From Convolutriloba macropyga (lineage: Eukaryota): 64,000 nt of DNA. Under the pieces are notes generated by a model. The model made no database searches and had not been told where the DNA came from. It worked only from the letters and a program-made list of their open reading frames with translations. Location: assembly GCF_964194025.1 (NCBI RefSeq), contig NC_134476.1:45012001-45076000 (forward strand), written 5' to 3'. Within the stretch, counting starts at the first letter, position 1, and every line of letters begins with the position of its first letter. A program made the translations under genes and the position numbers. Positions 1 through 57,730 of this stretch are shown here, one piece after another.

Positions 1-1309
1 TTCCATTGCTCCTTACTTGTTGTTAGTTTTTGGAAGAAATTGATGCAAAAATTGTTGTGCGCTTCTCTTAGTCTCCTATTAACTAAGTTTCTTAAGCGCT
101 TAAGTTCTTCGTACGTCTCGCTGTCAGGAATTTTTTTCCATTTATCGAACACAAAGTGTTTTTGTGCAATCAATTGTTTCAACTCTTGTGTTAACCAGGG
201 CTTGGAATTTTTATAAGTTTCTCCCCTTTTTTAACGCTCTAAATTGGTGCTTGTTTTTCAACAATTTTCTCAAAAAAGTCGAGGAAAGAATCAAACATAT
301 TATTGCCATTCTCACATTGGTACATTCTACACCATTCGGCGAGGGCAAGATCTCGGTTAAATTTAGAGCTTGAGAAAAGTAGAAAATTTCTGATCGTTAT
401 TATTTTGTCACTCTCAGATTTCAATGAGAGGTTTGATTCGAAGATAACAAGAAAATGGTCGGAGTTAAAAGGGGTTGTTGTTACATTGTAGGCAATTATC
501 TGATCTTTTGAAACGAAACAGTGATCAATAAGTGTAAATGTTTTATCAGTACCTCTGGTTGAATCCCTTAGGTTAACAATTTCTAATCCTGAATTCGACG
601 AAAAAACGTCTAGTTTTTTTTCTGTCTGGTTCAGATAATTCAAGTTGTAATCTCCCAGCAAAATAACGTTATCTGTAACGCCATATGCTCCCGATAATTC
701 GGTACCTAACTGATCAAGAAAATACTCACCAAGACGTTTGTTTGGGCAATAAGAAACGTTAACAAGTAATTTTTCAGTCAGAGGGTCAGTTATTTCAACC
801 CAAATGAATTCCAAAAAAACTCCCATCAACCGTTTCAAGGCTTGATTTAATATCGGCGGTAAATTTTTTCGGGACAAAAATACCTACTCCTCCGCCCTCT
901 GAAGCCCCTGTTTTTTCTGATCTACATTTCCCAAAGAAAGTATGCGATGCTGGTAAAAAGTTATTTTCAATATTACAATCGGTGTCCAACCAGGTTTCAG
1001 TTACAGCGACAAACGTATTAATGGGAGCTGTTTGCAAAAAGTTTGCAAACTCTTCAAACTTGTTCTTCAAGCTCTGACACTTAATAAGGAAAAATAAAGG
1101 CGAGTGGCTTGTTCCTCTGTTTTTAAGTAACTTGAATACTTAATCAAATCTTCCAGATGAGGCCCTAGGTTCAATTCAATGTCCCCTGACAGCATGAGAC
1201 GTACAAGTGGACAAAAAACTAACAGCTTTAGGGAAAAAAACAAAAAAGTATCAATCAACTGTTTTAAAAAAATAACAAACATTAGGTTTGTTGGAATAAT
1301 ACTTTTCAA
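1..1309 (-). mobile_element. Degenerate non-LTR retrotransposon (CR1/L2-group LINE), ORF2 N-terminus: 2A-like peptide plus APE endonuclease, frameshifted, continuing off the left edge
   Basis: ORFs 1067-1309, 795-1070 and 239-877 join into one APE domain (AVTETWL, GGGVGIFV, ILLGDYN, TLIDHCF, SDHFLV). Bases 1-238 read as the linker toward RT. ORF1 remnants may extend to ~1800 but could not be read reliably. Confidence 0.9.
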
Positions 1310-3419: not shown

Positions 3420-4480
3420 ACAAGGAGGCTCGGTAATGTGCGTTCGCACATTAAGCTCCGACCCCGCTCATCTACATTTTTCACTTAATTGTCTACCAAA
3501 TGAGGGAGAGACAAAAAATTAACATATCAACATATCGTTCAACAAATAACTAAAAGAATAAAACAGTCTACTGTAGAGGGTCTATGAGACCTGTGGCTAC
3601 CATAATATGACTACCAGAAAAACGGCAATAGAAATCAAATAGTTACAAATATTAATTACGACCAAAATTCCTTGTCCATTTTTTGAAAACCACTAATAAC
3701 CAAATCAAAAGGGCATCAGATAAAATTTATACTAAGAAGATTAACCGGTACTTTATGGAACAAAATATGGGACTTTTCCAAAATGCAACTTGGCAACAAG
3801 TCGACTAGAAATGAGCAAAAGCGGCAAAAGTTTATTAAACATTGCTTTTTTTAAAAAAAAAAAATTAAATTCGAATTGATTAGAAACATTACGCATCAAA
3901 TGAAATCATTGAAAGAGTCTTTTATACCTCAATAGAGAGTGACTGAGGCCTTTCATTATCCAGGATAAGTCATACGACTACAAAAAGAACGACAAATACA
4001 GACAAAATTTGCACGAAAATTTATGCACGAAAACGATGTCCCCCCAATCAAATAAATATTAAGGTGATCACTAAAAACAATTAAAATCTTCGTTCTTCGT
4101 TTGCTTTTTTTGCAGGTGACATCATTTGTAAGTTAAATGACACCCATTATTGTGATACTGTGAAAAGAAAACAAAAACCTACAAAAAAGGGGCAAATTTC
4201 CAAAAATCACGAAAATTGGTTTCATTAAAACTGGTTGTTCCAAGAAAAGAGACCATTTGAGGAAAAAACCGTTATAAAGAACGAATTGTATTTTAGAAAA
4301 TAAATGATGTGAATTGGATAGAGAGATACCTAGCCACAATTTAACAAAAAAAGAAAATTGGCAGATCTCAAAAATCTATCTCTATTTTTTATTAAAAACA
4401 AATATTTTCAAAATTCATAGCCAACAAAAGCTTTCGACTAAAAGAGTAGACAGTTTGTCTTGCAACTACTCGAAAAACTA
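3420..4480 (-). mobile_element. Non-autonomous Helitron-like repeat, copy 1 (3' end at ~3421; right boundary uncertain)
   Basis: Palindrome taatgtgcg-tt-cgcacatta (3434-3453) lies 13 nt from a CTTG|T end on the minus strand. Several blocks match 20160-21207 in inverted orientation (attacgaccaaaa, gtcatacgactaca, caaaagctttc). Confidence 0.6.
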
Positions 4481-7400: not shown

Positions 7401-8036
7401 CAGACGGTCATACTCTGAACAAACCACTCGCAAAAGTTTTGAAATACAAAAAAAGCTCTTTATATTAAATTTTCAATGACAGCTCACTTTTTTTAATTGT
7501 CTGAGTAGAAATCATAAAACATTAAAAACAAAGTTAAACCATTTAAGAGATGCAATAATTGGAACAAAACTTTTGTGAATAAAATAAAAAAAAGTTGGGG
7601 TTTTCAACACCAGAGCCGAGTGATAAGATAACAGAGAAAAATTTTTGCCAAGGAATGGAAAAACTGTTGACCAGTTATTATTTTTGGTCAAAACTTTTAA
7701 AACTGTGATATATCAGCCGCAACACTTAAAGTTTCTGAACGTTGTTTCACAAGAAAACTAAAGAAAAACTTCATTTTTCAGACTAAGTTACACGACAGAA
7801 AGAAACGAAGGCTATTTTTTCTTCAAATCAGATGAGTTACTTCAATCAACACAAACAGTTGGTTGAGATCATTATTTAGAATAACATTTGCCTTATTAGG
7901 GATTAATGCAATCTATTGCTAATGAAAATAAGAAACGGTTTTATTTCAAACAATTCTGATTAAACTTCGAACTCAAAAGATTACCAAAATTCGTATATTT
8001 GTTCTCCAAGCTGACTGAAACTAATTTGAGGTACGG

Positions 8037-8193
8037 TGTTCCCAATGACCTTGGGAACTCAAGAAAAGCATGACATTTGCTGATCATTAAAACTACCGCC
8101 AAAAACCTGAGAGTTACTTTTTCCCAAAACATCTGACAAGAAGTCGCAACCAAATATGAGCAACCAAAAGTCTAGAATATTTGTTTCACTACA
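8037..8193 (+). repeat. 5' LTR (157 bp)
   Basis: TGTTCCCAATG...TTTCACTACA; 3 mismatches to 18275-18431 by manual alignment. Confidence 0.97.
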
Positions 8194-8322
8194 TAAAATG
8201 GAGACCTACCTCCGTGATTAAGAAACATAGTCCACCTTCTGAAACGGATTTTTTTTTTAAGCAAAGAGGGTAACATCACCCCCCCCCCCCCCCAACCAAC
8301 CAAAGACAAAGAAACCGTACCA

Positions 8323-8402
8323 AGTGTCCGAACAAAAGGGGCCGCCGAACAAAAGTGTCCGAACAAAAGGTGTCCGAACAAAAGGAGCCGAACAAAAGGG
8401 GC
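8323..8402 (+). repeat. Five copies of CCGAACAAAAG at 14-17 bp spacing
   Basis: Copies start at about 8328, 8345, 8359, 8374 and 8388. Confidence 0.9.
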
Positions 8403-8679
8403 CCTTCATCAACAATTAAGACAATCAGCATCAAGAGAAGCCCCCCCAAGACGATTTTTTGGTCTCAGACGTCACCAAAGACGAGGAGATTTTTTTTTTC
8501 AAGGGTTCCAGACGTCACCCAATCAAGAAGGCCTGACTTTTTTTTGGTTGCAGCCGTCGCCAAGAGATGATAGCCCGAGATCCCAGACGTCACCTCAGAA
8601 GTCCCTTTCCCGGTTAGACGTATCCAAAAAAAACTTGAATTTTTTTTGCAACAAAAATCTCAAAAACATGAAAATTGCC

Positions 8680-10520
8680 CCCCCAGCGAGCTTTTGTCGA
8701 TGCTTTATGAAAGAAATAGCCATGAAAAATCACATGTCAGCATTTAGCAGCAAAAAAAACACATAGATTGTACGAAAAAATGATATAGCTTTTTTTGGAT
8801 CAGAAAAATTCAAAAACATTTTTCTGAATTTGTCGCAAAAAATCTACATAACAGTAAAATTAGTAGTTGAATAGAACACCTCAGTTGGACCTTATATTGA
8901 CTTTTTTAAAATCTAGTTGTTTATGTAAAATTTTTGCACAAAAAACGAAAAAGTTGCTAAAGTGCTTTTTTGAGGGTCAAAAATCAAAAAACGTTATCCC
9001 AACATTTTAATGGAAAATTTTTAATAAATCCAAGAAAACCTATTGATTGGGCCCCCTCAGTTTGCTATAATACAAGTTTTAAAGTTAGTTTATGGACTTT
9101 GCTTTTTAGCAAAGAGACAACGAGAATTTGGCAAAAATTGCTTCTTTGACTTTAAAAATTCAGAAAACGTTTTCTTGACGTTATGATATAAACTATTAGT
9201 AGACCCAAGAAAACCTATTGATTGGGCCCCTCAGTTTGCCATAATACAAGTTTCAAAGTTAGTTTATGGACTTTGCTTTTTAGCAAAGCGACAACTAGAA
9301 TTTGGCAAAAATTGCATCTTTGACTTTAAAAATTCAAAAAACGTTTTCTTGACGTTATGATATAAACTATTAGTAGATCTAAGAAAACCTATTGATTGGG
9401 CTCCCTCAGTTTGTTATAATACAAGTTTTAAAGTTAGTTTATGGACTTTGCCTTTTAGCAAAGAGACAACGAGAATTTGGCAAAAATTGCTTTTTTGACC
9501 TTAAAAATTCAAAAAATGTTTTCTTGACGTTATGATATAAACTATTAGTAGATCCAAGAAAACCTATTGATTGGGCCCCCTCAGTTTGTTATTATACCAG
9601 TTTTAAAGTTAGTTTATGGGTTTTGCACTTTAACAAAGAGGCAACTAGAATTTGGCAAAAATTGCATCTTTGACTTAAAAAATTCAAAAAACGTTTTCTT
9701 TACGTTGTGATATAAACAATTAGTAGTTTCAAGAAAACCTATTGATTGGGCCCCCTCAGTTTGCTATATTACAAGTTTTAAAGTTGGTTAATGGACTTTG
9801 CTTTTTAGCAAAGAGACAACGAGAATTTGGCAAAAATTGCTTCTTTGACCTTAAAAATTCAAAAAATGTTTTCTTGACGTTATGATATAAACTATTAGTA
9901 GATCCAAGAAAATCTATTGATTGGGCCCCCTCAGTTTGCTATAATTTGAGATTTAAAGTTAGTTTGTCAATTTAACATTTTAGAAAAGAAGCAACTTGAA
10001 TTTAGCAAAATTTCATCTTTGACGTTAAAAAAGTCAAAAAAAAAAAACGTTTCCTTGAAATTTTGTTATAAACAATTAGTAGATCCAAGAAAACCTATTC
10101 ATTGAGCCCCCTCAGTTTGTTACAAAACAAGCTTCAAAGTTAGTTTATCCATTTTGCATTTCAATAAAGAGGCAACATAAAATTGTCAAATTTGCTTCTT
10201 AGACTCAAAAAACTCAAAAAAAAAACTTTTCTTGACGTTTTGATAGATACAATTAGTAGATCTAAGAAAACCTTTTCATTGAACCCCCTCAAATTATTAT
10301 AATACAAGCTTCAAAATTATTATTTCGATTTTACTCTTAGAAAAGAGGCAACATAAAATTGGCAAAATTGCTTCTTTCACTCAAAAAAAAAAATAAAAAC
10401 GTTTTCCCAAAGTTTTGGTTAAAACATTTATTAGTCCCAGAAAACCTGTTGATCGCACCCCCTCAGTTTATTTCAAAACAAACCGATAAATAAATTTTAT
10501 CACTTTTGCAAAACTTTATT
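8680..10520. repeat. Tandem array of ~175-bp units inside the retrotransposon leader (8 clear units plus degenerate edge units)
   Basis: Anchor (c/t)aagaaaacctattgattgggccccctcagtttg recurs at about 9031, 9206, 9380, 9555, 9730, 9905, 10086, 10263 and 10438. Decayed units lie to the left, from ~8680. Confidence 0.95.
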
Positions 10521-11513
10521 CTTAAGAAAATCCGACAATCACAGTTTTGCTTTCAATTTGTGCATACTACTAGCCGCGCGCTTAGTTAATGGGGTAGTAT
10601 GCACTGAAAACAACTTCAAGAAAAAAAAACAAAAAAGAGGAAAAATTAAGAACATTTTTCTCATTAGATCAAAAGCAAGAAAATCAAAAGCTCGAAATAT
10701 TTCCCCACTTAAATTTGCTCACACAAATACTTCCTTGAGGATAACTCAAACGTCTCTTCCTTTTTTGTCCGCGGTCTCAGAAGTTGCCGAAAGAAGTCCC
10801 TTTGCCCCTCTTTTTGGTCTCAGTAGTCACCAGATGGAAGGAGAGAGTATTTTTGGTGTCAGTAGTTACCATAGTAGATGATCTTCAAAACTTAGTGTCA
10901 GCAGTCACAAGGGCGGAAGGAATTCTCAAAAAAAGATTTCAAAAGTTTTGAAAAGAAAACAAGAAGCAAGCAGTTCAATTTAAGAGGAAAGAATTTCAAA
11001 CGAGCCCCCAAGTCGAGTTGTCTTGTCTGCTTGTCTGTAGCTCACGTTACCTATTCGCACCGCAATAAAAAAAAACTTTTAAACAATTTCAACACAGGTA
11101 CTAAGCAGTAGCAGCCTCTAAGCATTTTTTTGTTCCTTTTTCAAAAAAGGTTTTGTACTTGTAAAAGATTGTAACAAAAAACTATTCAAGAGCCATACAC
11201 TTATTATACTCATAAGGAAATCTTAATTTCCCCAAGTTTTAGCAATTATTTGGTCGTGTTTATTGAAATAACGAAACAAGCGCGCGCACACGTTTATTTT
11301 TTCTTTTTTTAGATAAAACTAGCTAGATTTAGCACAAAAAAAACAATAGGATTCTATTTTTCAGAAAAGTTGCGTCGTATTTTTAACAACAAAAACTGGG
11401 ACTGATTAGCCTCACAGTGTCATAAACATTGTTTTTCAATTTTGAAATTTGCGTCGCTCCGGTTTCGAAGCCGTTTTTTACCTGTTAGTACGAAAAAGAC
11501 CAACAAGAGCAAG

Positions 11514-14500
11514 ATGACAAAGAAGAACAGTCAAAGTTGTCAGTACGCTTTAAACAAATTCAAAATTGCAGAGCTGAGTTTGAAAAGCAAGCTGGACCTC
11601 TTACAGTCTGCAATTGATCAGCGAAAGAGTTTCAGATCACTCACCCTGCTCATCAATAAAGCAAAATCAAATGTTGACGAGCTGAAAACAACACTTGATG
11701 CCGTGTTAAATGAAAATCCGAACTCCAGCAGTACTTCATCTGTCATGGAACGATATTCAAACCTTCTGTCACGGCTAGAGAAATTTGAACACGAAATTGA
11801 CAGTTTAGATGACGATGGACTACTCAGCCAATCTTCAACTAGGATACGCGATGATGTCAGTGTAACAACTCATACGACTGCCAGATATCCAACCTCACGG
11901 AGATGCTCACCATCAATGAACGAGATTCCAGAAGCAAGCAACCCTGAACGTTCATCTTTCACCAACAAAACACCACCTCTCCCACCGAGACCGGAGAAAC
12001 CGTCCCTGTTTTTGTCTGAATGCCACAGGACCAAACCAATGTTGTCAAAGTTTTTAAATGGCAACAACGAGAATTCCCCTACTATTGCAATGAGTACAAC
12101 AAGTTTATTCAGACCAATTAACATCGATAACACAGTTGATTCCAAAACAGAAGTAAAACACTCGGATAAAAATTTTGCGAAACCTGAGACGACCGTCGCT
12201 AAAACTCCCGATCGTTTTGCTCTCAGTGATACAACATTATCTGCTGTTGATAATTTTACAGTCAACTAGCAGCAGTTTAAAGCAGACAATGATTCTATCC
12301 AGCCACTCAGTTTTGTAAGCGCGCAAAATAACTTTCAAAACAGTTTTCCACAGGAAAACCTTAATAATCAATTACAGTAAAAAAATATGTTATCTGAATT
12401 TTCTCGAGATATCGCCGAGGAACAGTTTCAGACGCAAACGTTTGAACCAAAGAGCATGGGTTGTTCCCAATTCCAAGGAACACATAATCCCCGCTTGATG
12501 AATCCCAGTTCTGTCAAATATTACAGTCAAGAAAAAGCACAGAATCTAGATTTTGATCCGCAACAGACAAAACAACCAATTGAACTGAGTAACACAATGA
12601 CAAACTTTAATCAGTTCTCCGAAATTTTCTGCCAAAACGCAAACAATTTTCAAACATCTAACATATTTTCTTTACCATTGCATAATAGACAGGAATCGAA
12701 AAACACAGAGAATAAAAATTTACCTGGAAACTTCACTCAATTCCAGCCACAGTCACAAGTCAATACCGTAGGCATTGAGCCTGTCAACCCATTCGGTGTT
12801 CAACAAACCGCCTGTTCAAAAACAATAACTGAAAGTGTTCCAATTGCTCCTTCAATCTCAACGTTTCCCCCACAAGCACTGCCTTCAGTAGAGAAAATCC
12901 CCAGCCACAATTACCACATTCACATCAATTTTCCAGCGTATTGAATCCAATATCAAATGAAAGGTTCAAAAACCCTTCATTTGAAATCAAATCTTTACCG
13001 TGGACCTCAAACACAGCTCCATATTGCCAGAATTCAACAAGTAAACACTCAATAAAGTTACCACCTCTTACAATTCAAAACTTTAATGGCAACCCATTGA
13101 AGTACCACGAATGGATAAATAACTTTTTTTTGCCTCGTACATAACAACACCAGTATCACCGACACACATCGTATCACCTATTTGCAAAATGCAGTTACTG
13201 GCAAAGCAAAAGATGTAATCCAAGCTTATTCGTGTGATCCTGCTCATTATAGCACAGCTTTAAACGAACTAATGTCATTTTTGGTGATCCTACAATAGTG
13301 GTGAACGCCTTCATAAATCAATTGGAAAACTGGAAATCAACTAATGACTATAACAAGCAAAATTTTGTGGCCTTTGCTTTGTTCTTGAAACGTTTAGTGC
13401 ACGCTTTCCAATACCTGGGATACACAGCGGACCTACAGAGCTCAACACTTATGAAGAAAGCTAAAGAAAAAGTCCCGCATAACATCCTCCTCAAATGGAC
13501 AGAGCACACCGTTACATCAATCCAAACACCAGCTACTTTGGTTGAATTTCAGAAATGGTTAGAAGTTCAAGCACATGTGTACGATAAGATAAACCGCGAA
13601 AACTTCCAGCAAAATAACCTTCGTAGAAACAACTTTAGTATCTCTGGAACTTTGAACAACAGCGTTAATCACTCAAGAAATTTAGGTACCCAAAATTTAG
13701 CTTTTCCAGTACAGCCGACTAGCCTAAATCAGTTAACAGCAATAAGCAGTAGCGGTAATGTGAAACCACCTAGCGCTCCACCATTTCCATCCCTAAACAA
13801 CTCAAATCAACCAAAGCGTTCTTGCGAAAAATGTCGAGGAAATCATATACTAGCGACCTGTCCCGATTACCAACAATGCAGCCCAAACCAGCGATTTGAC
13901 ATTGTAAGCAAGAGCAATCTTTGCTCGAACTGTTTGAGCAATAAACACAAGAAGCAAAACTGCCCATCAACAAAACGCTGCCAAACATGCAGCGGATACC
14001 ACCACACAACGCTGCATGACCCTGGTAAAATTATCAAGCGTCCACCAGCTGCTTTTGCCACCAGCGATTCCACAGGTACAAGTGTTACCAACCAAGCAAA
14101 TCAGCTTGTCAAACAGCAATGTGAACCAGGAAGTAACAACAACGCAAGCGCCTCATCCAAATCACAAAAGAGCCGCTACGGACAGTCTTTTGCAAACAAA
14201 AATCAGAATCAATTTCAGCGCGCTAATTTGAACAATGCCAACCAAAGTTTTAGCGTGAATCATCTACAGTCTACACCAAAAGAATGGTTCGAACAACTTC
14301 AACTTATCCCAGTATCTTTTCTAAACGGCAAAAAAGCTTTCGATACGTACGCTCTGATCGATCCAGGAAGCCAATTTACTTTCATACTTGACAAAATCAC
14401 AGAGTTCCTTGCTCTTCCATGCGACGATCAAGAAGCAACTACGCTTCAGTATCTTAACACGGAGCATGATATGCCACTTTCAAAAATTTCTGAACAAGTG

Positions 14501-17500
14501 ACAGTTGCATCCTACGAAAATTTGGATCAAAAGTTTCAAATTACAACCACTTATAGCACTCCTTGTTTAAATGTAGCACCAGCTAATACATTTGAACTCA
14601 ACCAACTTTGCGATGCATTCAAAGAACTGCGTCACATTCACTTCCCAGAAATAGCTGAAGGCAAAATCGGTGCCCTTTTGGGAATAAACACTTTTGCTTT
14701 CACACATCCAGTTGAAGTCATCCCGGCAACTAAAAACCAGCCTTTCGGCGTAAAGACGAGGCTTGGATGGACCCTAGCTGGAGAGTATGAAAGAGTGCAA
14801 AAGCAACCCAAACAACGATCTCACCAGCAGAAACAGTACGTGTACCACGTATCACGAAGAAGCTCCGACGATCAGCCTCTTGATGAATTGCTTGAGCAAT
14901 TCTGTAAAATTGAAGCTGAAGGAACTCAACCCGAGCCTGAATCTAAAAATCCCGTTGACAAGGACGCCCTTGATATATTGAACAAAACAATCAGCTACAA
15001 TGGTGAGAGGTACGAAATTGGACTGCCTTGGAAAAAACCATTGAGAATTGAAAATAATTATTTTGCAGCTCTCAGCCAGCTGAAAAGTCTTCAGAAGCAA
15101 CTCAGTAATGACCTCCAATTGAAAGAGTTGTATGAGCAAACTCTCACAACAGATCTTCAAAAATTTTATGTCAAGCCAGTTGAAATGCAGCAGCCAGAAC
15201 CCGAGAAAATTTGGTATTTGCCTCATCACCCAGTGGTTAATCCAAACAAGCCCGGAAAAGTGCGCAGAGTAGCAAATGCTGCGGCCAAGTTTAGAGGACA
15301 ATCTTTGAACTCCAATTTGATCACAGGACCAGATTTGCTGAACAACTTGGTAGGAATTCTTCTGAGATTTCGTGAAAACCCAGTTGCCATTCTCTCTGAT
15401 ATCGAAGGCATGTTCATGCAGATAGCAATAAGGCATGAGGACCAATCTGCATTACGCTTTCTCTGGCCCAATGAAGAGATGGTTAACCAATACCAGTTCA
15501 CCAGATTAATTTTTGGAGCAACCTGCTCCCCATTTTGTGCAATTTTCGTTCTGAACCGTTGCGCAGAAGATAATGCAATTGAATTTCCAAAAGCAGTTAA
15601 TGCAATAAAGAACCATTTTTATATGGACGACTATATCCATTCTTTGCCGTCTATAGAAGAAGCAATTGACACTATTAACCAGACTAAAGATAGCCTTCAT
15701 AAAGGTGGCTTTCGCTTGACAAAATTTGTGTCAAACAAACATGAAGCCCTAAGGTTCATTGAGCAAGAAGATCGAGATGAACTGAAAGAGATCAATAGAT
15801 TCCTCGGTCAGAAATGGAATACCAGAACTGATTGTTTTCTAATGAAGACATTAGAACATTTTGCCCGAAATGCAAGTGAGTATACACAAAGGAAAATGTT
15901 CAGCTTAGTATCAACAATTTTCGATCCCCTAGGAATTTTGTCCCCGCTCACAATTAGAATCAAAATGCTTTTACAACAAGTCTGGAAGCTAGGTAAGAAG
16001 TGGGATGAACCACTTCCCGCAGAACTTCATTCCAACCTACAAAAGGTGCTCGATAGTTACTTTGCAACGCCTGATATCGAAATCTCAGATGGTTGAACTC
16101 CTCAACGAATCAGGAAAATAATCACCAGCTCCATGTCTTTGTTGACGCCTCAACCGTTGCATTGTCAACAGTTGCTTACATTCGCACCCAAAAACAGGAT
16201 GAAATCTTTCAAACATATTTTCTGCTTGGAAAATGCAAAGTTGCACCAATAAAACAAATTAGTGTGCAAAAATTAGAACTCGAAGCAGCCGTTTTAGGTA
16301 CACGCCTCCGCACACTGATACAAACTGAAATGACATTAAAATTTGAAAAAGTCTACTTGTGGACTGATAGTCGTGTTGTCTTAGATTGGATCAGTTCAAC
16401 TAAGAAACAAAACGTTTTCGTCTCAAATCGACTCGAAAAAATTAAGAAAACAACTAAAACTGATGAGTGGAATCATGTCCCAACTAATTTTAATCCAGCC
16501 GACCATGGAACGCGTGGCCTTGAGCCATCAGAAATTCCCCCGAAATGGCTTACACCACCACAATTTTTGCAAAACACTGAAAGTTCTTGGAAAGATTTGA
16601 AAAAGATTTCAACCGTAGGTGCCGTAACCAGAAATACAAAAACACCAATCAAACTTGTTCTAGACCCAAACCGCTTTTCAACATGGAATAAGCTACTTTT
16701 AACCCTCGCAACTGTCTTCAATTTAATTTACAGAGCTAAGAAGAATCGTTCCGACAAAAGCCAATACACAAAAGATGATGTTTGTTTATCTCAAAATTTT
16801 CTGCTGAAGTTGTCTCAAAACAATGCTTTTTCCTCAACAATCAACGCAATAAAAAGAACACAAAAATTAGGCGCCAAGAGCAAATTGAGAAACTTAAATC
16901 CAATAATTGACCAAAACGGACTCCTACGATCTAGTGGCCGTCTCCTATTTGCTCCAACAGAATTGGAGATCGAAAAATGTCCAATAATCTTGGACGCAAA
17001 GGAAAAGATTGCTAGACTATACCTTGAGCATGCGCACAGAATTTGTGCTCATCAAGCAACAAAACCGGTCAAAGCATTCGTACAACAACGCTACTACGTC
17101 ATTGGACTTCGAAAAACACTACTTTCAATAAAATACCGATGTTTTCTGTGTCGCCGTTTTGACACTCAAAGTATACAACCAATAATGGCCCAGAAGAAAC
17201 CGAATTTCCGTTTGCCAACACAGGACTGGACTTTTTTGGCCCGTTTTATATTGAGGACAAACAAGGCAAAATCGAGAAACATTATGGACTTATTTTTACA
17301 TGCCTCGTTACGCGAGCAGTCCATTTAGAAACATGTCCAGATTTAATTACAGACGCCTTCCTCAATGCATATCGACGATTCACCTGCCGAAGATGCCAAC
17401 CTATTTTATTGTACAGCGATAACGGAAAAACATTTGTTGGCGCCTCCGAAGAGCTGAAGAAGTCGGTTAAGGCTTTAGACAAAGACAAGATTTATAAAGC

Positions 17501-18107
17501 CCTAGCTGCAGTCAAAACCACATGGAAATTTAACCCACCATACGGCCCTCATTTCGGTGGCGTGTGGGAGCGATTGATTCAGAGCGCCAAAAGGACACTC
17601 TTGATCATTCTAGGATCTAAGCGTCTCTCCTTCGACATCTTTGAGACAATAATGGTAGAAGTCGAAGCAATCCTGAATTCCAGACCCTTGACAAACGTTG
17701 CTGATCAGCCTGAAAACGAAGAACCACTCACTCCTGACCATTTCCTCATTCAACGCCCTTACGGTTCCTTGCCACCCGGAAACTTTGGAGACCAACAGCC
17801 AGCTAGTTTCAAGAACTGGAAGCACGTGCAGCAGTTGATGAACCACGTGTGGCGGCGTTTGATTAAGGAGTACCTGCCGACATTACTCAAGAGACGTAAA
17901 TGGACAGAAAACAACCAGCCTCCTCTGAAATTAGGAGATGTTGTGTGGGTACTCAAGGACTTGACGCCGAGAGGAATCTGGCCCCTTGGAAGAGTTGTGG
18001 AAACATCCCCTGGACGAGACGGTGAAGTACGAGTTGCCAAAGTAAAAACGGCTTACGGCTCGTTCGTGCGTCCTGTCGCCGGCCTCGCACGGGTTTTTTC
18101 TCCGTAG
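11514..18107 (+). pseudogene. BEL/Pao gag-pol polyprotein broken by a stop (12269) and several frameshifts
   Basis: Gag DUF1759-like KLPPLTIQNFNGNP; three Zn knuckles (CEKCRGNH..C, CSNCLSNKH..C, CQTCSGYHH..H); protease ALIDPGS; RT FGATCSP and YMDD; RNase H LHVFVDAS and PADHGTRG; integrase HHCC, YSDNGKTF, GGVWERL; C-terminal WPLGRV..PGRDG. Confidence 0.95.
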
Positions 18108-18274
18108 TTTTTTAATTCAAATTTTTTGCTTCGGTCTTAGGCAACATGAGCTACATCCACCCCCTTTGATGTTATTGCCCTTACAGTATTTTCATTCCAA
18201 TTATATAGGTTCAAGGATATCGGATCAAACGACAATCAAGATGATCTCCAACCCCTGCCCTCCTTCTTGGAGCA

Positions 18275-18431
18275 TGTTCCCAATGACCTTGGGAACTCAA
18301 GAAAAGCATGACATTTGCTGATGATTAAAACTACCGCCAAAAACCTGAGAGTTACTCTTTCCCAAAACATCTGACAAGAAGTCGCAACCAAATATGAGCA
18401 ACCAAAAGTCTAGAATATATGTTTCACTACA
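18275..18431 (+). repeat. 3' LTR (157 bp)
   Basis: Direct repeat of 8037-8193, followed by TSD TACGG. Confidence 0.97.
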
Positions 18432-18439
18432 TACGGTAT

Positions 18440-20159: not shown

Positions 20160-21207
20160 GCCTCCTAAGGAGTTACAAGCTATTATGTCCATGGTTTTCA
20201 GTTGAAAGCTTTTGTATGTTATGAAAGCAATCTTCACGACCATTTTTTTGGAAACTGGCACATTTCCTCTTGCTTGTCAAAATTGTTACATTAATAAATG
20301 ATTATATGTCATATGATTAATTTTTTAATAACGTCGACAGAAAGTGCAAGTTGACTTATCGTATGTTTTTGTAAATAGATTACGGTTTGAACAGCTTAGA
20401 AACTAGATATTGTTTTCTGGTAAACATTAATTGATTTTTTGGTTTTCCTGTATTTGTTTTTCTCTGTAGTCGTATGACAAAATCCAGTTAATAGCAGGTT
20501 TTAGTGGCATTCGAGAGAGGTATAAATGAACCTGTTTAATATTTTCAGTTGATAGCTAATGAACTTTATGATTTGTAATTTGTGTTTATCCAATTAATAG
20601 CAGGTTTTAGTGGCATTCTACAGAGGTATAAATGAACCTGTTTAATATTTTCAGTTTATAGCTATTGAACTTTATTTTTTAAATTTGTGTTTATTAAATT
20701 ACAAATCATAAAGTTACAGAAAACCTGCAAAAAACTTTCTTTACTTTTGCCCTTGTTGTTCTTTTTTGTCCAATTATTACCTGGTCTTATTAAAAAAATT
20801 TCCCAAATCTTCACCAGTGAAAATTATTTTTCAGGTTTGGTTCTATTCCGAATCTATATTGGCTTCTTTAAGAAAGACTTTGTTTGGAAAGTTTTTTTTA
20901 GAAATTAGACTTTGAGTTTTGGTCGTAATTAGTGTTTGTTGTTATTATTGGCTATTGTTTGTTGTTTGTGTAATTTTAAGGTCTAATCAATGACAGGTCT
21001 GGTCAGCCCTCTAACTTGGCATTAATTAATTCATCTGATGATTTGAAATTAAAACCACGTCTTAACTCATACACCAATTATTTTCGAAGACTCTGTGAAC
21101 TTTTGGAAGTATTCGTCTCGTCCTAATTTGACATACAATTATGTCAAAAATGTGGATCAGTGGGATTAGAGTATTATGTGCAAATGCGCTTTACCGAGCC
21201 TCCTTGT
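20160..21207 (+). mobile_element. Non-autonomous Helitron-like repeat, copy 2 (left boundary uncertain)
   Basis: Ends ...taccgagcctccttgt, the reverse complement of 3420 onward. Diverged homology to 3420-4480. Confidence 0.6.
20483..20695. repeat. ~106-bp tandem duplication
   Basis: ttaatagcaggttttagtggcatt... starts at 20488 and 20594. Confidence 0.9.
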
Positions 21208-53847: not shown

Positions 53848-53943
53848 CACGAAATGAGCAGTTAGCAAACAGTCGCTTTCTTTTACACTGCATTACACGA
53901 AATGAGCAGTTAGCAAACAGTCGCTTTCTTTTACACTGCATTA
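53848..53943. repeat. 48-bp perfect tandem duplication in the LINE 5' UTR
   Basis: Unit cacgaaatgagcagttagc...acactgcatta at 53848 and 53896. Confidence 0.95.
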
Positions 53944-53973
53944 CGTAATAAAATTTCAACTGCATTCTTAACT

Positions 53974-54888
53974 ATGGCGCTGTATGAGAAACTAAACTCA
54001 ATTGATCTTAACGATACAAATTCAATGCGTTCATTATTTCTGGATTTCATTAAAGAAATTAATTATCAAAAAGAAGAAATCAACCAACTGCGTAGAGGAT
54101 GTGATCAACTAAGGACCGAAAAGGAGGAGCTTTCAAAGAGAGTTACTAAATTGGAACGTTATTCATCTTTTATGTGTTTGACTTTTCATGGGGTAGAGAA
54201 CGGTGGTGAGTACCCGGTACACAAAATTGTGGAGTTAATCAGGTCAGTACAAATTCCAATTGAAACTCATGATATTGCGGCCTGCCACTACCTACCTGGG
54301 AAAGGTAAAAGAAAATCCATAATTGTTAAATTTCTTTATAATCATCAGCGCGATTCGGTATGGTTTAATAGCAATTCTTTTTTTGATCCGGTTTCTGGGG
54401 CTAAAATTCACATAAACGAGCGTCTAGCGGAAAATGATAGAGACTTGTACAACTATTGCAGAAAAGAAAAAAATCTTCTTACAACCACGAACAAAAACCA
54501 AGTACGCGTTAAGTTCTCAGAAAACGATACAACTTGGTATCCAGTTGACAGTCGGCATCAAGTTGATTACCTTGTGGGAACTAATGGTAATACTGAAAAC
54601 GAGTGGGGTATGGAAACAGTAGAGATGTTGGCACAAGAACCTTATGTAAATAAGAAAACACCATTGAAAAGAAGTCGGCAGGTGGCTTTTCAATCACCTC
54701 AAGGAAATTTTCAAAAGCATTGTGGCACTAAACAATTTGACAAGCTGGACAGGTTATGCTGTTTGACTGAAAAAGTATTCAATTTATTGGTTGAAAAAGA
54801 GTCTCCGCCGTCCAAAAAAAGTACAAACTTGAATGATGAATGCAATAACTTCTCGAGTAATCAGAGCAGTGAAGAGAATCCGATTTAG
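53974..54888 (+). CDS. LINE ORF1 (coiled coil plus L1-type RRM/CTD-like nucleic-acid chaperone)
   Basis: Heptad region ending LERYS, then LTFHGVE, DIAACHYL, IIVKF, IHINERL, a pattern typical of this ORF1 class. Confidence 0.8.
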   Translation: MALYEKLNSIDLNDTNSMRSLFLDFIKEINYQKEEINQLRRGCDQLRTEKEELSKRVTKLERYSSFMCLTFHGVENGGEYPVHKIVELIRSVQIPIETHDIAACHYLPGKGKRKSIIVKFLYNHQRDSVWFNSNSFFDPVSGAKIHINERLAENDRDLYNYCRKEKNLLTTTNKNQVRVKFSENDTTWYPVDSRHQVDYLVGTNGNTENEWGMETVEMLAQEPYVNKKTPLKRSRQVAFQSPQGNFQKHCGTKQFDKLDRLCCLTEKVFNLLVEKESPPSKKSTNLNDECNNFSSNQSSEENPI

Positions 54889-57730
54889 TCTTCATACATC
54901 ATTGATTGTCATACTAAAAACAAAAGCCGAACTTTTTTGGGTTTAAACATTCAGTCTTTGAGATTCCATCATGCTGAACTAGTAGTTTTCCTTGATACAT
55001 TAGATCAAAAACCTGATGTTATTGCTTTAACTGAGACATGGTTAAAAGATAGTGACCAGCCTGACGACTATGATCTACCAGGTTATCAGACAATAGTGTC
55101 GAAACCAAGAAACAACGCTAAGAGACGATCTGGTGGAGTAGTCTTTTACATTAGAGATAATCTTCAATATACAATACAGGATACTAACACAGAAATTGAA
55201 TGCTTAATTTTACAAGTGAAATACGACGAGAAATGTTTGCATAATTTTTGCGTGATTTATAGACCTCCGTCTTTGAAGTTAACTGATTTTCAACCAAAGC
55301 TGGAAACCATTTTACATTGTTTGAAGTTTTCAAAAGAGGAAAGTTTAATCTTTGGTGATTTTAACATAGATATTTTAAAGAGAGAAAAAAGTACAAAAAA
55401 TTATGAGAATCTTTTAAGATCATTTGATTTTCAAGTACAAAACTCAATGCCCACAAGGGTAACCAAAAATTCAAAGAGCTGTATTGATCATATAATCACA
55501 GAAACAAACATAAAAACTGAAACGCTAGGAACGACAATAAGCGATCATTTTATATTAACTGCTGAATTTTTTGTATCAAGCTTAAATATTAAAAGCATTC
55601 AGTCATCGGTACTCATGCGAAATTTGAAATCAATCAAAACAGACAAAGCGCTGAATTTTCTTTTCGTCTTAGACCAGAATATCAAAAAAATTCCTGAGAA
55701 TTTGAATGCTAATGATTACATGAGTACAATGATCAAGAAAATTATTGAAAGTTTAAACAAATTTGCGCCTGAAAAGGTGTTCGAAACATCTGATTCTCCT
55801 AAATCTGCAAGCTGGATTACAAATGAAATCAAAAATGCCATTGTAAAGAGAGACAAAATGTTTCAAAAATGGATAGCAGAGCCTACTATTGAAAACCAAA
55901 CTAGATATAAACAAATACGGAACAAGGTAACTAACTTGATAAGAAATGGAAAAAGAGACGATAACTTCAAAAAACTAGGCAAAAATCCAAGCCCAAAAAT
56001 TATTTATAGGACACTAAAAACTTGTAAAAGAAAGGACAATACCATCGATTTACCAAATCTTGATGACTTGAACGATTACTTTGTTTCAATTGGACCAAAA
56101 TTATCTGCAAAATTTAATAGCGAAAAAAGCAGTTGCAATATACGCAATAATGAAAAAACGATGGTACTTCATCAAACAAATGAATCAGAGGTTACAAAAA
56201 TCTTGAGGAAATTGAAAAACAAGAAAAGTACTGGTCATGATGGAATCTCAAACGAAATTTTGAAGTGTTGTTCTCCCATTATTGAATGTCATCTTGCAAG
56301 AGCCATTAATTATTGTTTGCTAGAGCGTATTTTCCCAGATTCATTAAAAATAGCCAAAGTAATACCCTTATATAAAAAAGGAAACAAGACTGACCCTGGT
56401 AATTACAGACCTATCAGTTTACTGAGTACAATAAGCAAAATTCTGGAGAAGATCTTACTTAAGAGGATGATGAAATTTTGCGTAAAAAATAATTTGCTAG
56501 CGAACAATCAGTTTGGCTTTAGATCTAAAATGTCATGTGTGCATGCAGTTGCCACCATAACGGAGTATATTCGAAATGTTATTGCCAACAAATCAACTGG
56601 GCAAGCTAGTTTTATTGACTTAAGCAAAGCTTTTGATACAATAGATCATGAAATTTTGTTACTAAAAATAGAAAGATATGGATTCAGAGGTCCAATTTTG
56701 GAGCTATTAAAAAATTATTTAACTGGGCGCACCCAGTTTGTAAGTGCAGGATGCAAAAAAAACGACAGAAAAGCAAATAGTTTGTGGCGTACCTCAGGGC
56801 TCTGTTCTGGGCCCTTTTTTGTTCATTTTGTATATCAATGATCTCCCCGCAGTTTGTAATGAAAGCACTTTAGTAATGTTCGCAGATGATACTACTGTTG
56901 TTAATGCCAGTAAAGACAATAATTCGCCTCTACAAATGGATGTTGAAAGAGTTTCCAACTGGTTTAATACTAACAAATTAACAATTAATTATGTCAAAAG
57001 TGAAGCTATAAATTTCGGTAAACCCACAAAAGAAAAAGTAAAACTCAAGGATAATGCTCTAGATTACAACACATCTTGTAAGTATTTAGGAATCTACATT
57101 GATAAGAACTTAACATTCCGTGATCATGTTGATTTTGTTGTTAAAAAACTTAACAAGTTTTGCGGACTAATGTATCGGGTACGACATTTTTATCCAAGAA
57201 GGTGTCTTCTAATGTTTTATGACTCTTTTGCCAAATCGGTCATAACTTATGGTCTATTAGTCTATGGGAACACAAGCAAACAGAATTTAGAAAAAATTGA
57301 TAGGGTACAGCGAAAAATCATTCGAGCAATTTTTTTCAGGAAAAAATATGAATCCTTAGGTCTTACACTAATTGACAACAAGATATATACTGTATATGAA
57401 CTTTACGTGATTGAACTTGTCAAAGAACTTTTTAAACAAATAAGGTCCGAATCTCCGCTACAATACATAATTCCGCAAAGTCTAGCAGTCATTAAAAAAC
57501 AAACGAGATGGAGTTTAAGAGGCCTATTTCCCCCGCCATTTTCGAAAACTACAAAAAACAAAAAGTCATTAGCTAACTTGTTGAAGAAAACATATAATTG
57601 GCTAAAACAACTGAATTTATTACCCGAAAACTTTCAAAACTTTAGTTTTCAGCAAGTGAAAGCACATATATCAAAAATAAGTGAGCTTTACATTAAAGAT
57701 AATAGGGATGTTTTTGCCCTCTATTACTAA
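54889..57730 (+). CDS. LINE ORF2 (APE endonuclease plus reverse transcriptase) with one frameshift in an A8 run at 56755-56762
   Basis: LNIQSL, ALTETWL, GGVVFYI, FGDFNID, SCIDHI, SDH; NYRPISLL, QFGFR, DLSKAFDT, GVPQGSVLGP, FADD, YLG. Confidence 0.93.

What the first reader, a model, noticed from the sequence alone, without database searches (positions are those of the whole stretch)
8680..10520. ~175-bp tandem array in the leader of an RT-encoding LTR element
Seen: about 10 units lie between the 5' LTR and gag, so they would be part of the genomic RNA. Most core units carry ATTGATTGGGC (reverse CCAAT), TGACGT and TATAA-like motifs, and the CCCCTCAG core persists in decayed units. Known: mouse L1 uses ~200-bp tandem monomers as its promoter, and LTR-element UTRs can seed satellites. 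Inference: the array may be a multimerised promoter/enhancer compensating for the tiny LTR, a source of repeated non-coding RNA units, or a nascent nucleosome-length satellite carried by the element.
Basis: partly seen in the sequence, partly recalled or inferred. Interest (0 to 1): 0.72.

Follow-up and report, generated by a model that had tools for sequence, protein, structure and literature searches.

The report
Conserved repeat array in retrotransposon leader
A family of jumping genes carries a conserved block of 175-base repeats in front of its genes, and related families carry unrelated repeats in the same slot; the block likely helps control when the element is switched on, a kind of arrangement already known from fruit-fly retrotransposons.

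Summary
The array is real: 8 full 175-bp units, a partial ninth and one decayed unit, in the 3.3-kb leader of a BEL/Pao LTR retrotransposon (8037-18431). It is a family trait. All 40 copies picked by ORF1 similarity carry units; 39 carry 5-19 (median 9). The middle units expand and contract, the 3' units are position-specific, and two copies reach about 40 and 57 units. No free satellite was seen. A sister family keeps the 175-bp unit at 72-78% identity, against 34-41% at fourfold sites, which points to selection. No 10-bp periodicity or conserved RNA fold was found. Seven other BEL/Pao families in this genome have leader arrays; six use unrelated units. Best reading: a cis-regulatory DNA platform acting on the LTR promoter, like the tandem 5' UTRs of Drosophila rover, ZAM, Tirant and gypsy. 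It is unlikely to be an L1-type promoter for the genomic RNA. Function is untested; no RNA run was listed. Known kind, new member.

The parts
8032..8036 (+). 5' target-site duplication TACGG
   Evidence: same 5 bp at 18432-18436
8037..8193 (+). 5' LTR, 157 bp, TG...CA; ATTAAA at 8086; no canonical TATA seen
   Evidence: direct repeat, 98% identical to the 3' LTR; 3 substitutions in 155 bp; sequence
8199..8206 (+). primer-binding-site-like TGGAGACC (sister family TGGCGACC)
   Evidence: host tRNA-Arg(TCG) genes end in GGTCG; only 8-9 nt match
8328..8403 (+). short 14-bp repeats, not seen in the sister copy aligned
8461..8593 (+). four copies of a small hairpin-like motif GRT-NN-CAG-NN-GT-YRC; best conserved non-coding block (86% to sister family)
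8671..8845 (+). conserved spacer, not significantly unit-like
   Evidence: 8671-9020 is 81% identical to the sister family
8846..9020 (+). decayed 5' unit
   Evidence: alignment score 67 vs shuffle maximum 44
9021..9894 (+). five homogeneous 174-175-bp units (87-95% alike)
9895..10507 (+). three diverged 3' units and a partial ninth; the last ones are position-specific across copies
10560..10605 (+). hairpin with an 11-bp perfect outer stem right after the array; duplicated in the sister family
   Evidence: z -3.39
10773..10869 (+). three more copies of the small hairpin-like motif
11514..18107 (+). gag-pol region of BEL/Pao type, broken into several frames by stops and frameshifts in this copy
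   Evidence: ORF list; RVT_1, Peptidase_A17, DUF5641
18275..18431 (+). 3' LTR
18432..18436 (+). 3' target-site duplication TACGG

Best explanation
The array is an inherited, conserved part of the leader of a BEL/Pao LTR retrotransposon family and likely works as a multimerised DNA-binding platform (enhancer, insulator or chromatin boundary) for the promoter in the 5' LTR. Shown: it lies downstream of the primer site, so every new insertion receives it; its middle units are gained and lost in blocks while the 3' edge units stay fixed; some copies expand after insertion. Inferred: selection keeps the unit sequence and the 175-bp spacing; host proteins would bind the conserved A/T-rich dyad (AAAGA.GCAA-N17-TTGCTTCTTT), the AACGTT palindromes and the ATTGA/C-run core; unit number would tune expression; and related lineages have refilled the same slot with unrelated units.
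For: 40 of 40 ORF1-selected copies carry units, 39 carry 5-19. 417 of 481 spacings are 173-177 bp. Against the sister family (RT 70% aa identity) the unit is 72-78% identical with almost no gaps, fourfold sites are 34-41%, the LTR is 50% (shuffle 40%), and other leader stretches fall to 45-49 matches per 100 columns, so a recent swap of the whole leader does not explain it. The best kept positions over 12 diverged units are AAAACGTTTT (0.92), CAAC (0.92), TTTGACT and ATTGA (0.85); the mean is 0.74. The inverted repeats show 1 compensated pair of 18 and an unfavourable covariation term, which fits sequence-level rather than structure-level constraint. Leader arrays lie between the 5' LTR and the ORF in 14 LTR-resolved copies of 7 other families. 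Precedent: 19 of 49 Drosophila LTR elements have tandem 5' UTRs, and ZAM's acts as insulator and HP1 site (PMC8872304); rover's 151-bp 5' UTR repeat has 1, 3 or 4 copies in variants whose LTR plus 5' UTR reporters differ in tissue (PMC12992720).
Against: No direct evidence of binding, enhancer activity or transcription. The selection test rests on one sister-family copy (L084) and on AT-rich sequence with a 40% shuffle baseline. Unit exchange between families could raise identity: two older sister-lineage copies hold the exact window-type 26-mer in their first unit, though they were picked by that pattern. One related family (3 copies, 1 LTR-resolved) and the distant clade lack such arrays, so they are dispensable for BEL/Pao in general. 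A narrow unit count in young copies is only suggestive: identical-LTR copies have 7-10 units and others 5-40 (permutation P 0.004 on a range chosen afterwards, Fligner 0.03, Levene 0.13), but LTR differences fit one Poisson age and private-mutation load gives rho 0.30, P 0.06. In rover, the 3-copy LTR-315 variant was silent and the repeat was not tested apart from the LTR.
Confidence: 0.5

Rival explanations
1. The array acts in the RNA: as a spacer or scaffold between two clusters of conserved hairpins that would serve packaging or dimerisation, or as part of a leader that is spliced out or bypassed for translation.
For: It sits between two clusters of a hairpin-like motif (7 of 8 window hits, chance 0.05; covariation 0.347 vs 0.172, 2 of 500 shuffles) and just before a strong hairpin (z -3.39). 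The leader has 25 upstream ATGs. Each unit has a 10-bp inverted repeat. The sister unit folds at z -2.75.
Against: The window unit folds no better than shuffles (z -0.44). 1 of 18 predicted pairs is compensated. No Rfam family reached its threshold; one chance-level hit at E 0.52. No GT-type donor consensus in the leader; the one strong acceptor-like site at 11297 lacks its AG at the aligned place in the sister copy.
Confidence: 0.2
2. The array is a tolerated by-product of slippage, template switching and unequal exchange, with no function.
For: Unit counts vary 5-19 in close copies and reach about 40 and 57. Block duplications are evident: four consecutive identical unit pairs at lag 5 in L026, many identical pairs in the C4 copy. 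Unrelated units fill the slot in other families. Ogre 3' UTR arrays were hypothesised to arise this way (PMC7004042, passages).
Against: Unit identity between families is far above fourfold sites (rough distances 0.27-0.38 vs 1.25-1.8 with assumed saturation levels). The period is exact in both families. No copy joining leader to gag without units was found among 40; derivatives that lack the array also lack gag.
Confidence: 0.15
3. Each unit is a core promoter (CCAAT, CRE half-site, TATA-like), as in mouse L1, driving a shorter gag-pol message from inside the leader.
For: ATTGATTGGGC in 314, TGACGT in 299 and TATAA in 426 of 474 family units. The exact core is also present in a third lineage and in the first unit of two older sister-lineage copies. 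An internal start would bypass upstream ATGs.
Against: The young sister copies have ATTGATTAG and TAACGT instead (0 ATTGATTGG, 0 TGACGT in three copies). Canonical TATAWAW is in 9 of 474 units. ATTGG, TGACGT and TATAA are barely more conserved than the unit average (0.77-0.78 vs 0.74). An internal start cannot give a replicable RNA (established knowledge).
Confidence: 0.1
4. The unit is a nucleosome-length satellite, captured from or feeding a host satellite, possibly linked to centromeres.
For: 175 bp fits a nucleosome repeat (recalled). Two copies expanded to about 40 and about 57 units, the latter with a 474-bp higher-order period.
Against: Only 239 exact hits of the 26-bp core in 1.18 Gb. 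All 29 clusters among the first 100 listed hits adjoin family sequence; 139 hits were not listed. No 9.5-11.8-bp periodicity (15 tests, lowest P 0.07). Other families use 20-127-bp units.
Confidence: 0.05

Closest known systems
Drosophila rover 151-bp 5' UTR tandem repeat (PMC12992720; passages and section 13 part 1 read)
   Same: Unit of similar size in the 5' UTR of an LTR element; copy number varies between variants; LTR plus 5' UTR set the expression pattern in reporters.
   Different: rover is an insect endogenous retrovirus with 1-4 units; here a BEL/Pao family has 5-19 (up to about 57) units with fixed diverged 3' edges. No reporter data here.
Tandem 5' UTRs of Drosophila ZAM, Tirant, accord, gypsy (PMC8872304; parts 1-2 of 5 read)
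   Same: Tandem arrays downstream of the 5' LTR; 19 of 49 families have them; insulator, enhancer and HP1 or RpL22 binding reported.
   Different: Different superfamily, no shared sequence tested, larger arrays here. The list of the 19 families was not seen and may include BEL/Pao members.
Ogre/Tat 3' UTR tandem arrays that seed satellites in Lathyrus (PMC7004042; passages read); maize CRM1TR/CRM4TR (PMC3648361; abstract read)
   Same: Hypervariable arrays inside an LTR element, units differing between lineages, occasional local expansion.
   Different: Plant Ty3/gypsy elements; Ogre arrays are in the 3' UTR and gave large satellites. Here the array is 5' and no free satellite was found.
Mouse L1 5' UTR monomers (PMC9022269, abstract; PMC3600994, passages)
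   Same: Tandem units ahead of ORF1, variable number, repeated replacement of the 5' region between lineages.
   Different: L1 monomers are the internal promoter at the very 5' end of a non-LTR element. This array lies behind an LTR and primer site and cannot start the genomic RNA.

Membership tests
BEL/Pao LTR retrotransposons (Belpaoviridae, PMC8742986) | gag-pol flanked by LTRs, with target-site duplication | tested here: met
   157-bp LTRs, TACGG duplication; matching 5-bp duplications in 35 of 37 copies with both full LTRs, of 42 examined. LTRs are shorter than the 0.2-1.2 kb given in the profile.
BEL/Pao LTR retrotransposons (Belpaoviridae, PMC8742986) | BEL/Pao-type pol: RT followed by RNase H and integrase | tested here: met
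   RVT_1, Peptidase_A17 (Pao) and DUF5641 in this order; the integrase core was read by eye from the last ORF, with no Pfam hit of its own.
BEL/Pao LTR retrotransposons (Belpaoviridae, PMC8742986) | 18-nt primer site for tRNA-Arg or tRNA-Gly | tested here: inconclusive
   Only 8-9 nt match host tRNA-type ends; tRNA-Arg(TCG) genes end in GGTCG, fitting the sister family's TGGCGACC better than the window's TGGAGACC.
Tandem 5' UTR arrays of LTR elements (rover/ZAM/Tirant type) | tandem units between primer site and gag, inherited in family copies | tested here: met
Tandem 5' UTR arrays of LTR elements (rover/ZAM/Tirant type) | enhancer, insulator or protein-binding activity | not testable with these tools
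   needs reporter and binding assays
Mouse L1-type monomer promoter | monomers form the 5' end of the element and start the replicated RNA | tested here: not met
   the array begins about 830 bp downstream of the 5' LTR and primer site
Mouse L1-type monomer promoter | promoter activity that depends on monomer number | not testable with these tools
   no RNA or reporter data
Satellite DNA derived from a retrotransposon | long arrays free of the parent element | tested here: not met
   239 exact core hits genome-wide; 29 of 29 inspected clusters adjoin element sequence; longest arrays 7-9 kb inside elements. Collapsed or unassembled arrays cannot be excluded.
Structured non-coding RNA repeat (e.g. 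retrozyme-type) | stable, covarying fold of the monomer or a known RNA family | tested here: not met
   z -0.44; 1 of 18 pairs compensated; no Rfam hit at threshold

The most novel reading that the evidence does not exclude
A whole clade of BEL/Pao elements in this animal has a swappable multi-kilobase regulatory slot in its leader. Each lineage fills it with its own multimerised binding unit (175; 101; 30 plus 32/53; 112 plus 43; 112 plus 21; 90 plus 127; 20 bp), sets its dose by unit number, and so occupies a separate expression niche or escapes host silencing, as mouse L1 does by replacing promoters.
Probability: 0.3. Interest if true: 0.65.

Novelty: new member of a known kind. Interest (0 to 1): 0.42.

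Why it matters
Tandem 5' UTRs of LTR elements are known mostly from Drosophila and plants. Here one genome holds eight related BEL/Pao families with such arrays and dozens of dated copies with natural unit counts from 5 to about 57. That makes two open questions testable: whether unit number tunes element expression, and how an array inside an element starts to grow into a satellite. My paper searches listed no title on such arrays in BEL/Pao; this is a limited library and not proof of absence.

Tried and rejected
No RNA holder listed; this says nothing on expression. The four listed runs, laid on 10520-12300, are contigs of unknown kind that behaved like genomic DNA; none of the 15 joints shown (19 not shown) had GT..AG ends, which is no evidence on splicing. 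A 350-bp dimer repeat suggested by the window does not hold across copies: lag-1 and lag-2 distances are alike. 10-bp A-tract periodicity: not found. Rfam: nothing. Sigma-70 scan and phage search: irrelevant to an animal element, not used. 'Young copies hold 7-10 units': kept only as a hint. The careful RT tree did not finish; the quick tree was used, and only for grouping families. L053 has a rearranged ORF1 region and its private-mutation value (11%) is an artefact left in the 39-row correlation; L057 and L058 were left out of it. Five of 42 copies lacked a full LTR pair and two had unmatched duplications; they were dropped from the dating.

Full report
What is there. The window holds an LTR retrotransposon at 8037-18431 with 157-bp LTRs (3 substitutions in 155 bp) and a TACGG target-site duplication. 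Its coding region is broken into several frames and matches RVT_1, Peptidase_A17 and DUF5641, so it is a BEL/Pao element. The leader from the LTR to the ORF1 ATG at 11514 is 3321 bp. TRF finds a 175-bp array at 9021-10469. There are eight full units, a partial ninth to about 10507 and a decayed unit at 8846-9020; the stretch before that is not significantly unit-like.

It is a family trait. In the 1.18-Gb own genome the first look gave 297 candidates for the unit, 388 for the LTR and 224 for ORF1; 40 were scored each time. All 40 copies selected by ORF1 similarity carry units. 39 carry 5-19 (median 9; 27 have 7-10) and one is 5'-truncated with a single unit. These are the copies closest to the window, not a random sample. 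Among 11 further LTR-selected sites, three showed a leader with array, four were internal deletions or LTR fragments lacking both array and gag, and four showed only the 3' end. Of 42 copies examined, 37 had both full LTRs and 35 of these had matching 5-bp duplications, with 0-5 LTR differences.

How the array changes. The first five window units are 87-95% alike; the last ones are 74-82% alike to the first five. Across copies the second-to-last unit is 95% identical between copies but 76% identical to the first unit of its own copy; 33 of 45 copies share the window's 3' end and 12 do not, most of them carrying a second fixed type. So the 3' edge is position-specific and the middle behaves like an accordion. 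Multi-unit block duplications are visible: L026 has four consecutive identical unit pairs at lag 5 despite 4 LTR differences. A copy on C4 has about 40 units with many identical pairs and an exact 2885-bp internal duplication. An older lineage on C3 has about 57 units, shortened to about 150-158 bp, with a 474-bp higher period. These point to expansion after insertion, but assembly errors were not excluded. Whether unit number also changes during reverse transcription could not be resolved. Copies with identical LTRs have 7-10 units and the others 5-40, but LTR differences fit a single Poisson age and the better age proxy gives only rho 0.30, P 0.06.

No free satellite. The exact 26-bp core has 239 hits genome-wide. 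The first 100 listed hits form 29 clusters, and all 29 adjoin family leader or ORF1 sequence. The other 139 were not listed.

Evidence for selection. A sister family (RT 70% aa identity) has a homologous 175-bp array. Against one sister copy, fourfold-degenerate sites are 34-41% identical and the LTR 50% (shuffle 40%). The units are 72-78% identical, the 350 bp before them 81% and the hairpin block 86%. Other leader stretches drop to 45-49 matches per 100 columns, so the leader was not swapped as one block. Exchange of single units remains possible.

Which motifs persist. The three young sister copies have ATTGATTAG and TAACGT; they hold no ATTGATTGG and no TGACGT. Over 12 diverged units the best kept parts are AAAACGTTTT, CAAC, TTTGACT, ATTGA, GCAAAAATTGC and CCCCTCAG (0.84-0.92), while ATTGG, TGACGT and TATAA score 0.77-0.78 against a mean of 0.74. 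Against this, two older sister-lineage copies keep the exact window-type core in their first unit, and the C3 lineage has ATTGATTGG in 17 units; these sites were found with that core as the pattern. The unit has a 10-bp inverted repeat with a 17-bp spacer and a shorter one around AACGTT, without compensatory support. It shows no helical periodicity and no unusual fold on the sense strand.

A clade-wide slot. Peptidase_A17 has 8554 candidates in this genome; I fetched 40 of the 150 scored, chosen mostly for long open frames. A quick RT tree separates a distant clade (15 rows, three families) from a clade of 26 rows in nine families that includes the window. Eight of the nine carry leader arrays: 175 (two families), 101, 30 plus 32/53, 112 plus 43, 112 plus 21, 90 plus 127, and a short 20-bp array. 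I tested 20 of the 40 for LTR pairs; 17 were used, and in 14 copies from seven families the array lies between the 5' LTR and the ORF. Units of different families show no similarity apart from 14-16-bp matches between two of them. The distant clade shows no comparable array, but LTRs were resolved for only 2 of its 15 rows and L100 has a 10-bp-period repeat upstream of unknown status. LTR length does not separate families with and without arrays.

Flanking hairpins. A motif GRT-NN-CAG-NN-GT-YRC occurs eight times in the window (chance 0.05), seven of them on the + strand in two clusters on either side of the array. On a hairpin structure that I drew from these same sequences, the covariation score is 0.347 against 0.172 (2 of 500 shuffles), and one stem position shows UA, AU, CG and GC. 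A stronger hairpin follows the array (z -3.39). These are better candidates for RNA signals than the units. Three upstream copies contain GACG, and GACG tetraloops take part in packaging in alpha- and gammaretroviruses (PMC516450, passages), but the predicted loop here is AGNN, so this is only a lead.

Mechanism. Established knowledge: the genomic RNA of an LTR element starts in the 5' LTR, so the array cannot be its promoter, but anything behind the primer site is copied into each new insertion. Shown: inheritance, accordion behaviour and conservation above neutral. Inferred: a multimerised DNA-binding platform acting on the LTR promoter (0.5). Rivals: RNA-level scaffold or bypassed leader (0.2), neutral by-product (0.15), internal core promoter (0.1), satellite (0.05).

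Comparison with print. 19 of 49 Drosophila LTR elements have tandem 5' UTRs, with insulator and protein-binding activity shown for some (PMC8872304, parts 1-2 of 5). rover has a 151-bp 5' UTR repeat in 1-4 copies (PMC12992720, passages and section 13 part 1). Ogre 3' UTR arrays seed satellites (PMC7004042, passages). Mouse L1 monomers and promoter replacement: PMC9022269 abstract, PMC3600994 passages. The ICTV profile (whole text) does not mention such arrays, and in a BEL/Pao survey (PMC3118150, passages) 'untranslated' has no hit and 'tandem' occurs only in a reference title. No supplements were read; the list of the 19 Drosophila families may include BEL/Pao members.

Verdict. Real, inherited and probably functional, but of a known kind. 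Interest 0.42; the clade-wide swappable slot would deserve 0.65 if shown to set expression.

Noticed in passing
window 8461-8593 and 10773-10869: Seven copies of a small hairpin-like motif flank the array in two clusters; the upstream block is the best conserved non-coding part between families and the stems show some covariation. Candidate packaging or binding signals.
   Followed up: partly
window 10560-10605: Strong hairpin with GCGCGC in its inner part directly after the array, duplicated in the sister family, where the inner part reads CGCGAG or CGCGCA; candidate dimerisation site (analogy to HIV-1 recalled, from no call).
   Followed up: partly
L060, L038, L044 (3' breakpoints near window 17562-17566); L061, L065, L011: Internal-deletion derivatives; three share almost the same 3' breakpoint in the integrase region. 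In L060 the junction looks like short-homology joining to the primer-site TGG.
   Followed up: partly
L171-L173 (G000 C3 about 23.99-24.01 Mb): Older third lineage with about 57 units over 9 kb, many shortened to 150-158 bp by loss of the CCAAT-bearing part, with a 474-bp higher-order period: a local satellite forming inside an element.
   Followed up: partly
L080 4318-4560, L093 3802-3980, L097 2630-2800 (element orientation): Second arrays of three related families are rich in AAAGGTCA and TGACC, which resemble nuclear-receptor half-sites (recalled, from no call).
   Followed up: no
L086 3660-5504 (element orientation): The 101-bp unit of another family folds strongly on the sense strand (z -4.5), unlike the 175-bp unit.
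   Followed up: no
window 53914-57730 (+) and 239-883 (-): Broken LINE-type elements with endonuclease and RT domains.
   Followed up: no
window 3420-3694 and 20890-21207: Diverged inverted repeat pair (74-76%) enclosing the LTR element; it may mark an older element into which it inserted.
   Followed up: no
L188-L195 (G000 C1 about 20.08-20.14 Mb): Tandem cluster of tRNA-Arg(TCG) genes at roughly 410-bp spacing.
   Followed up: no
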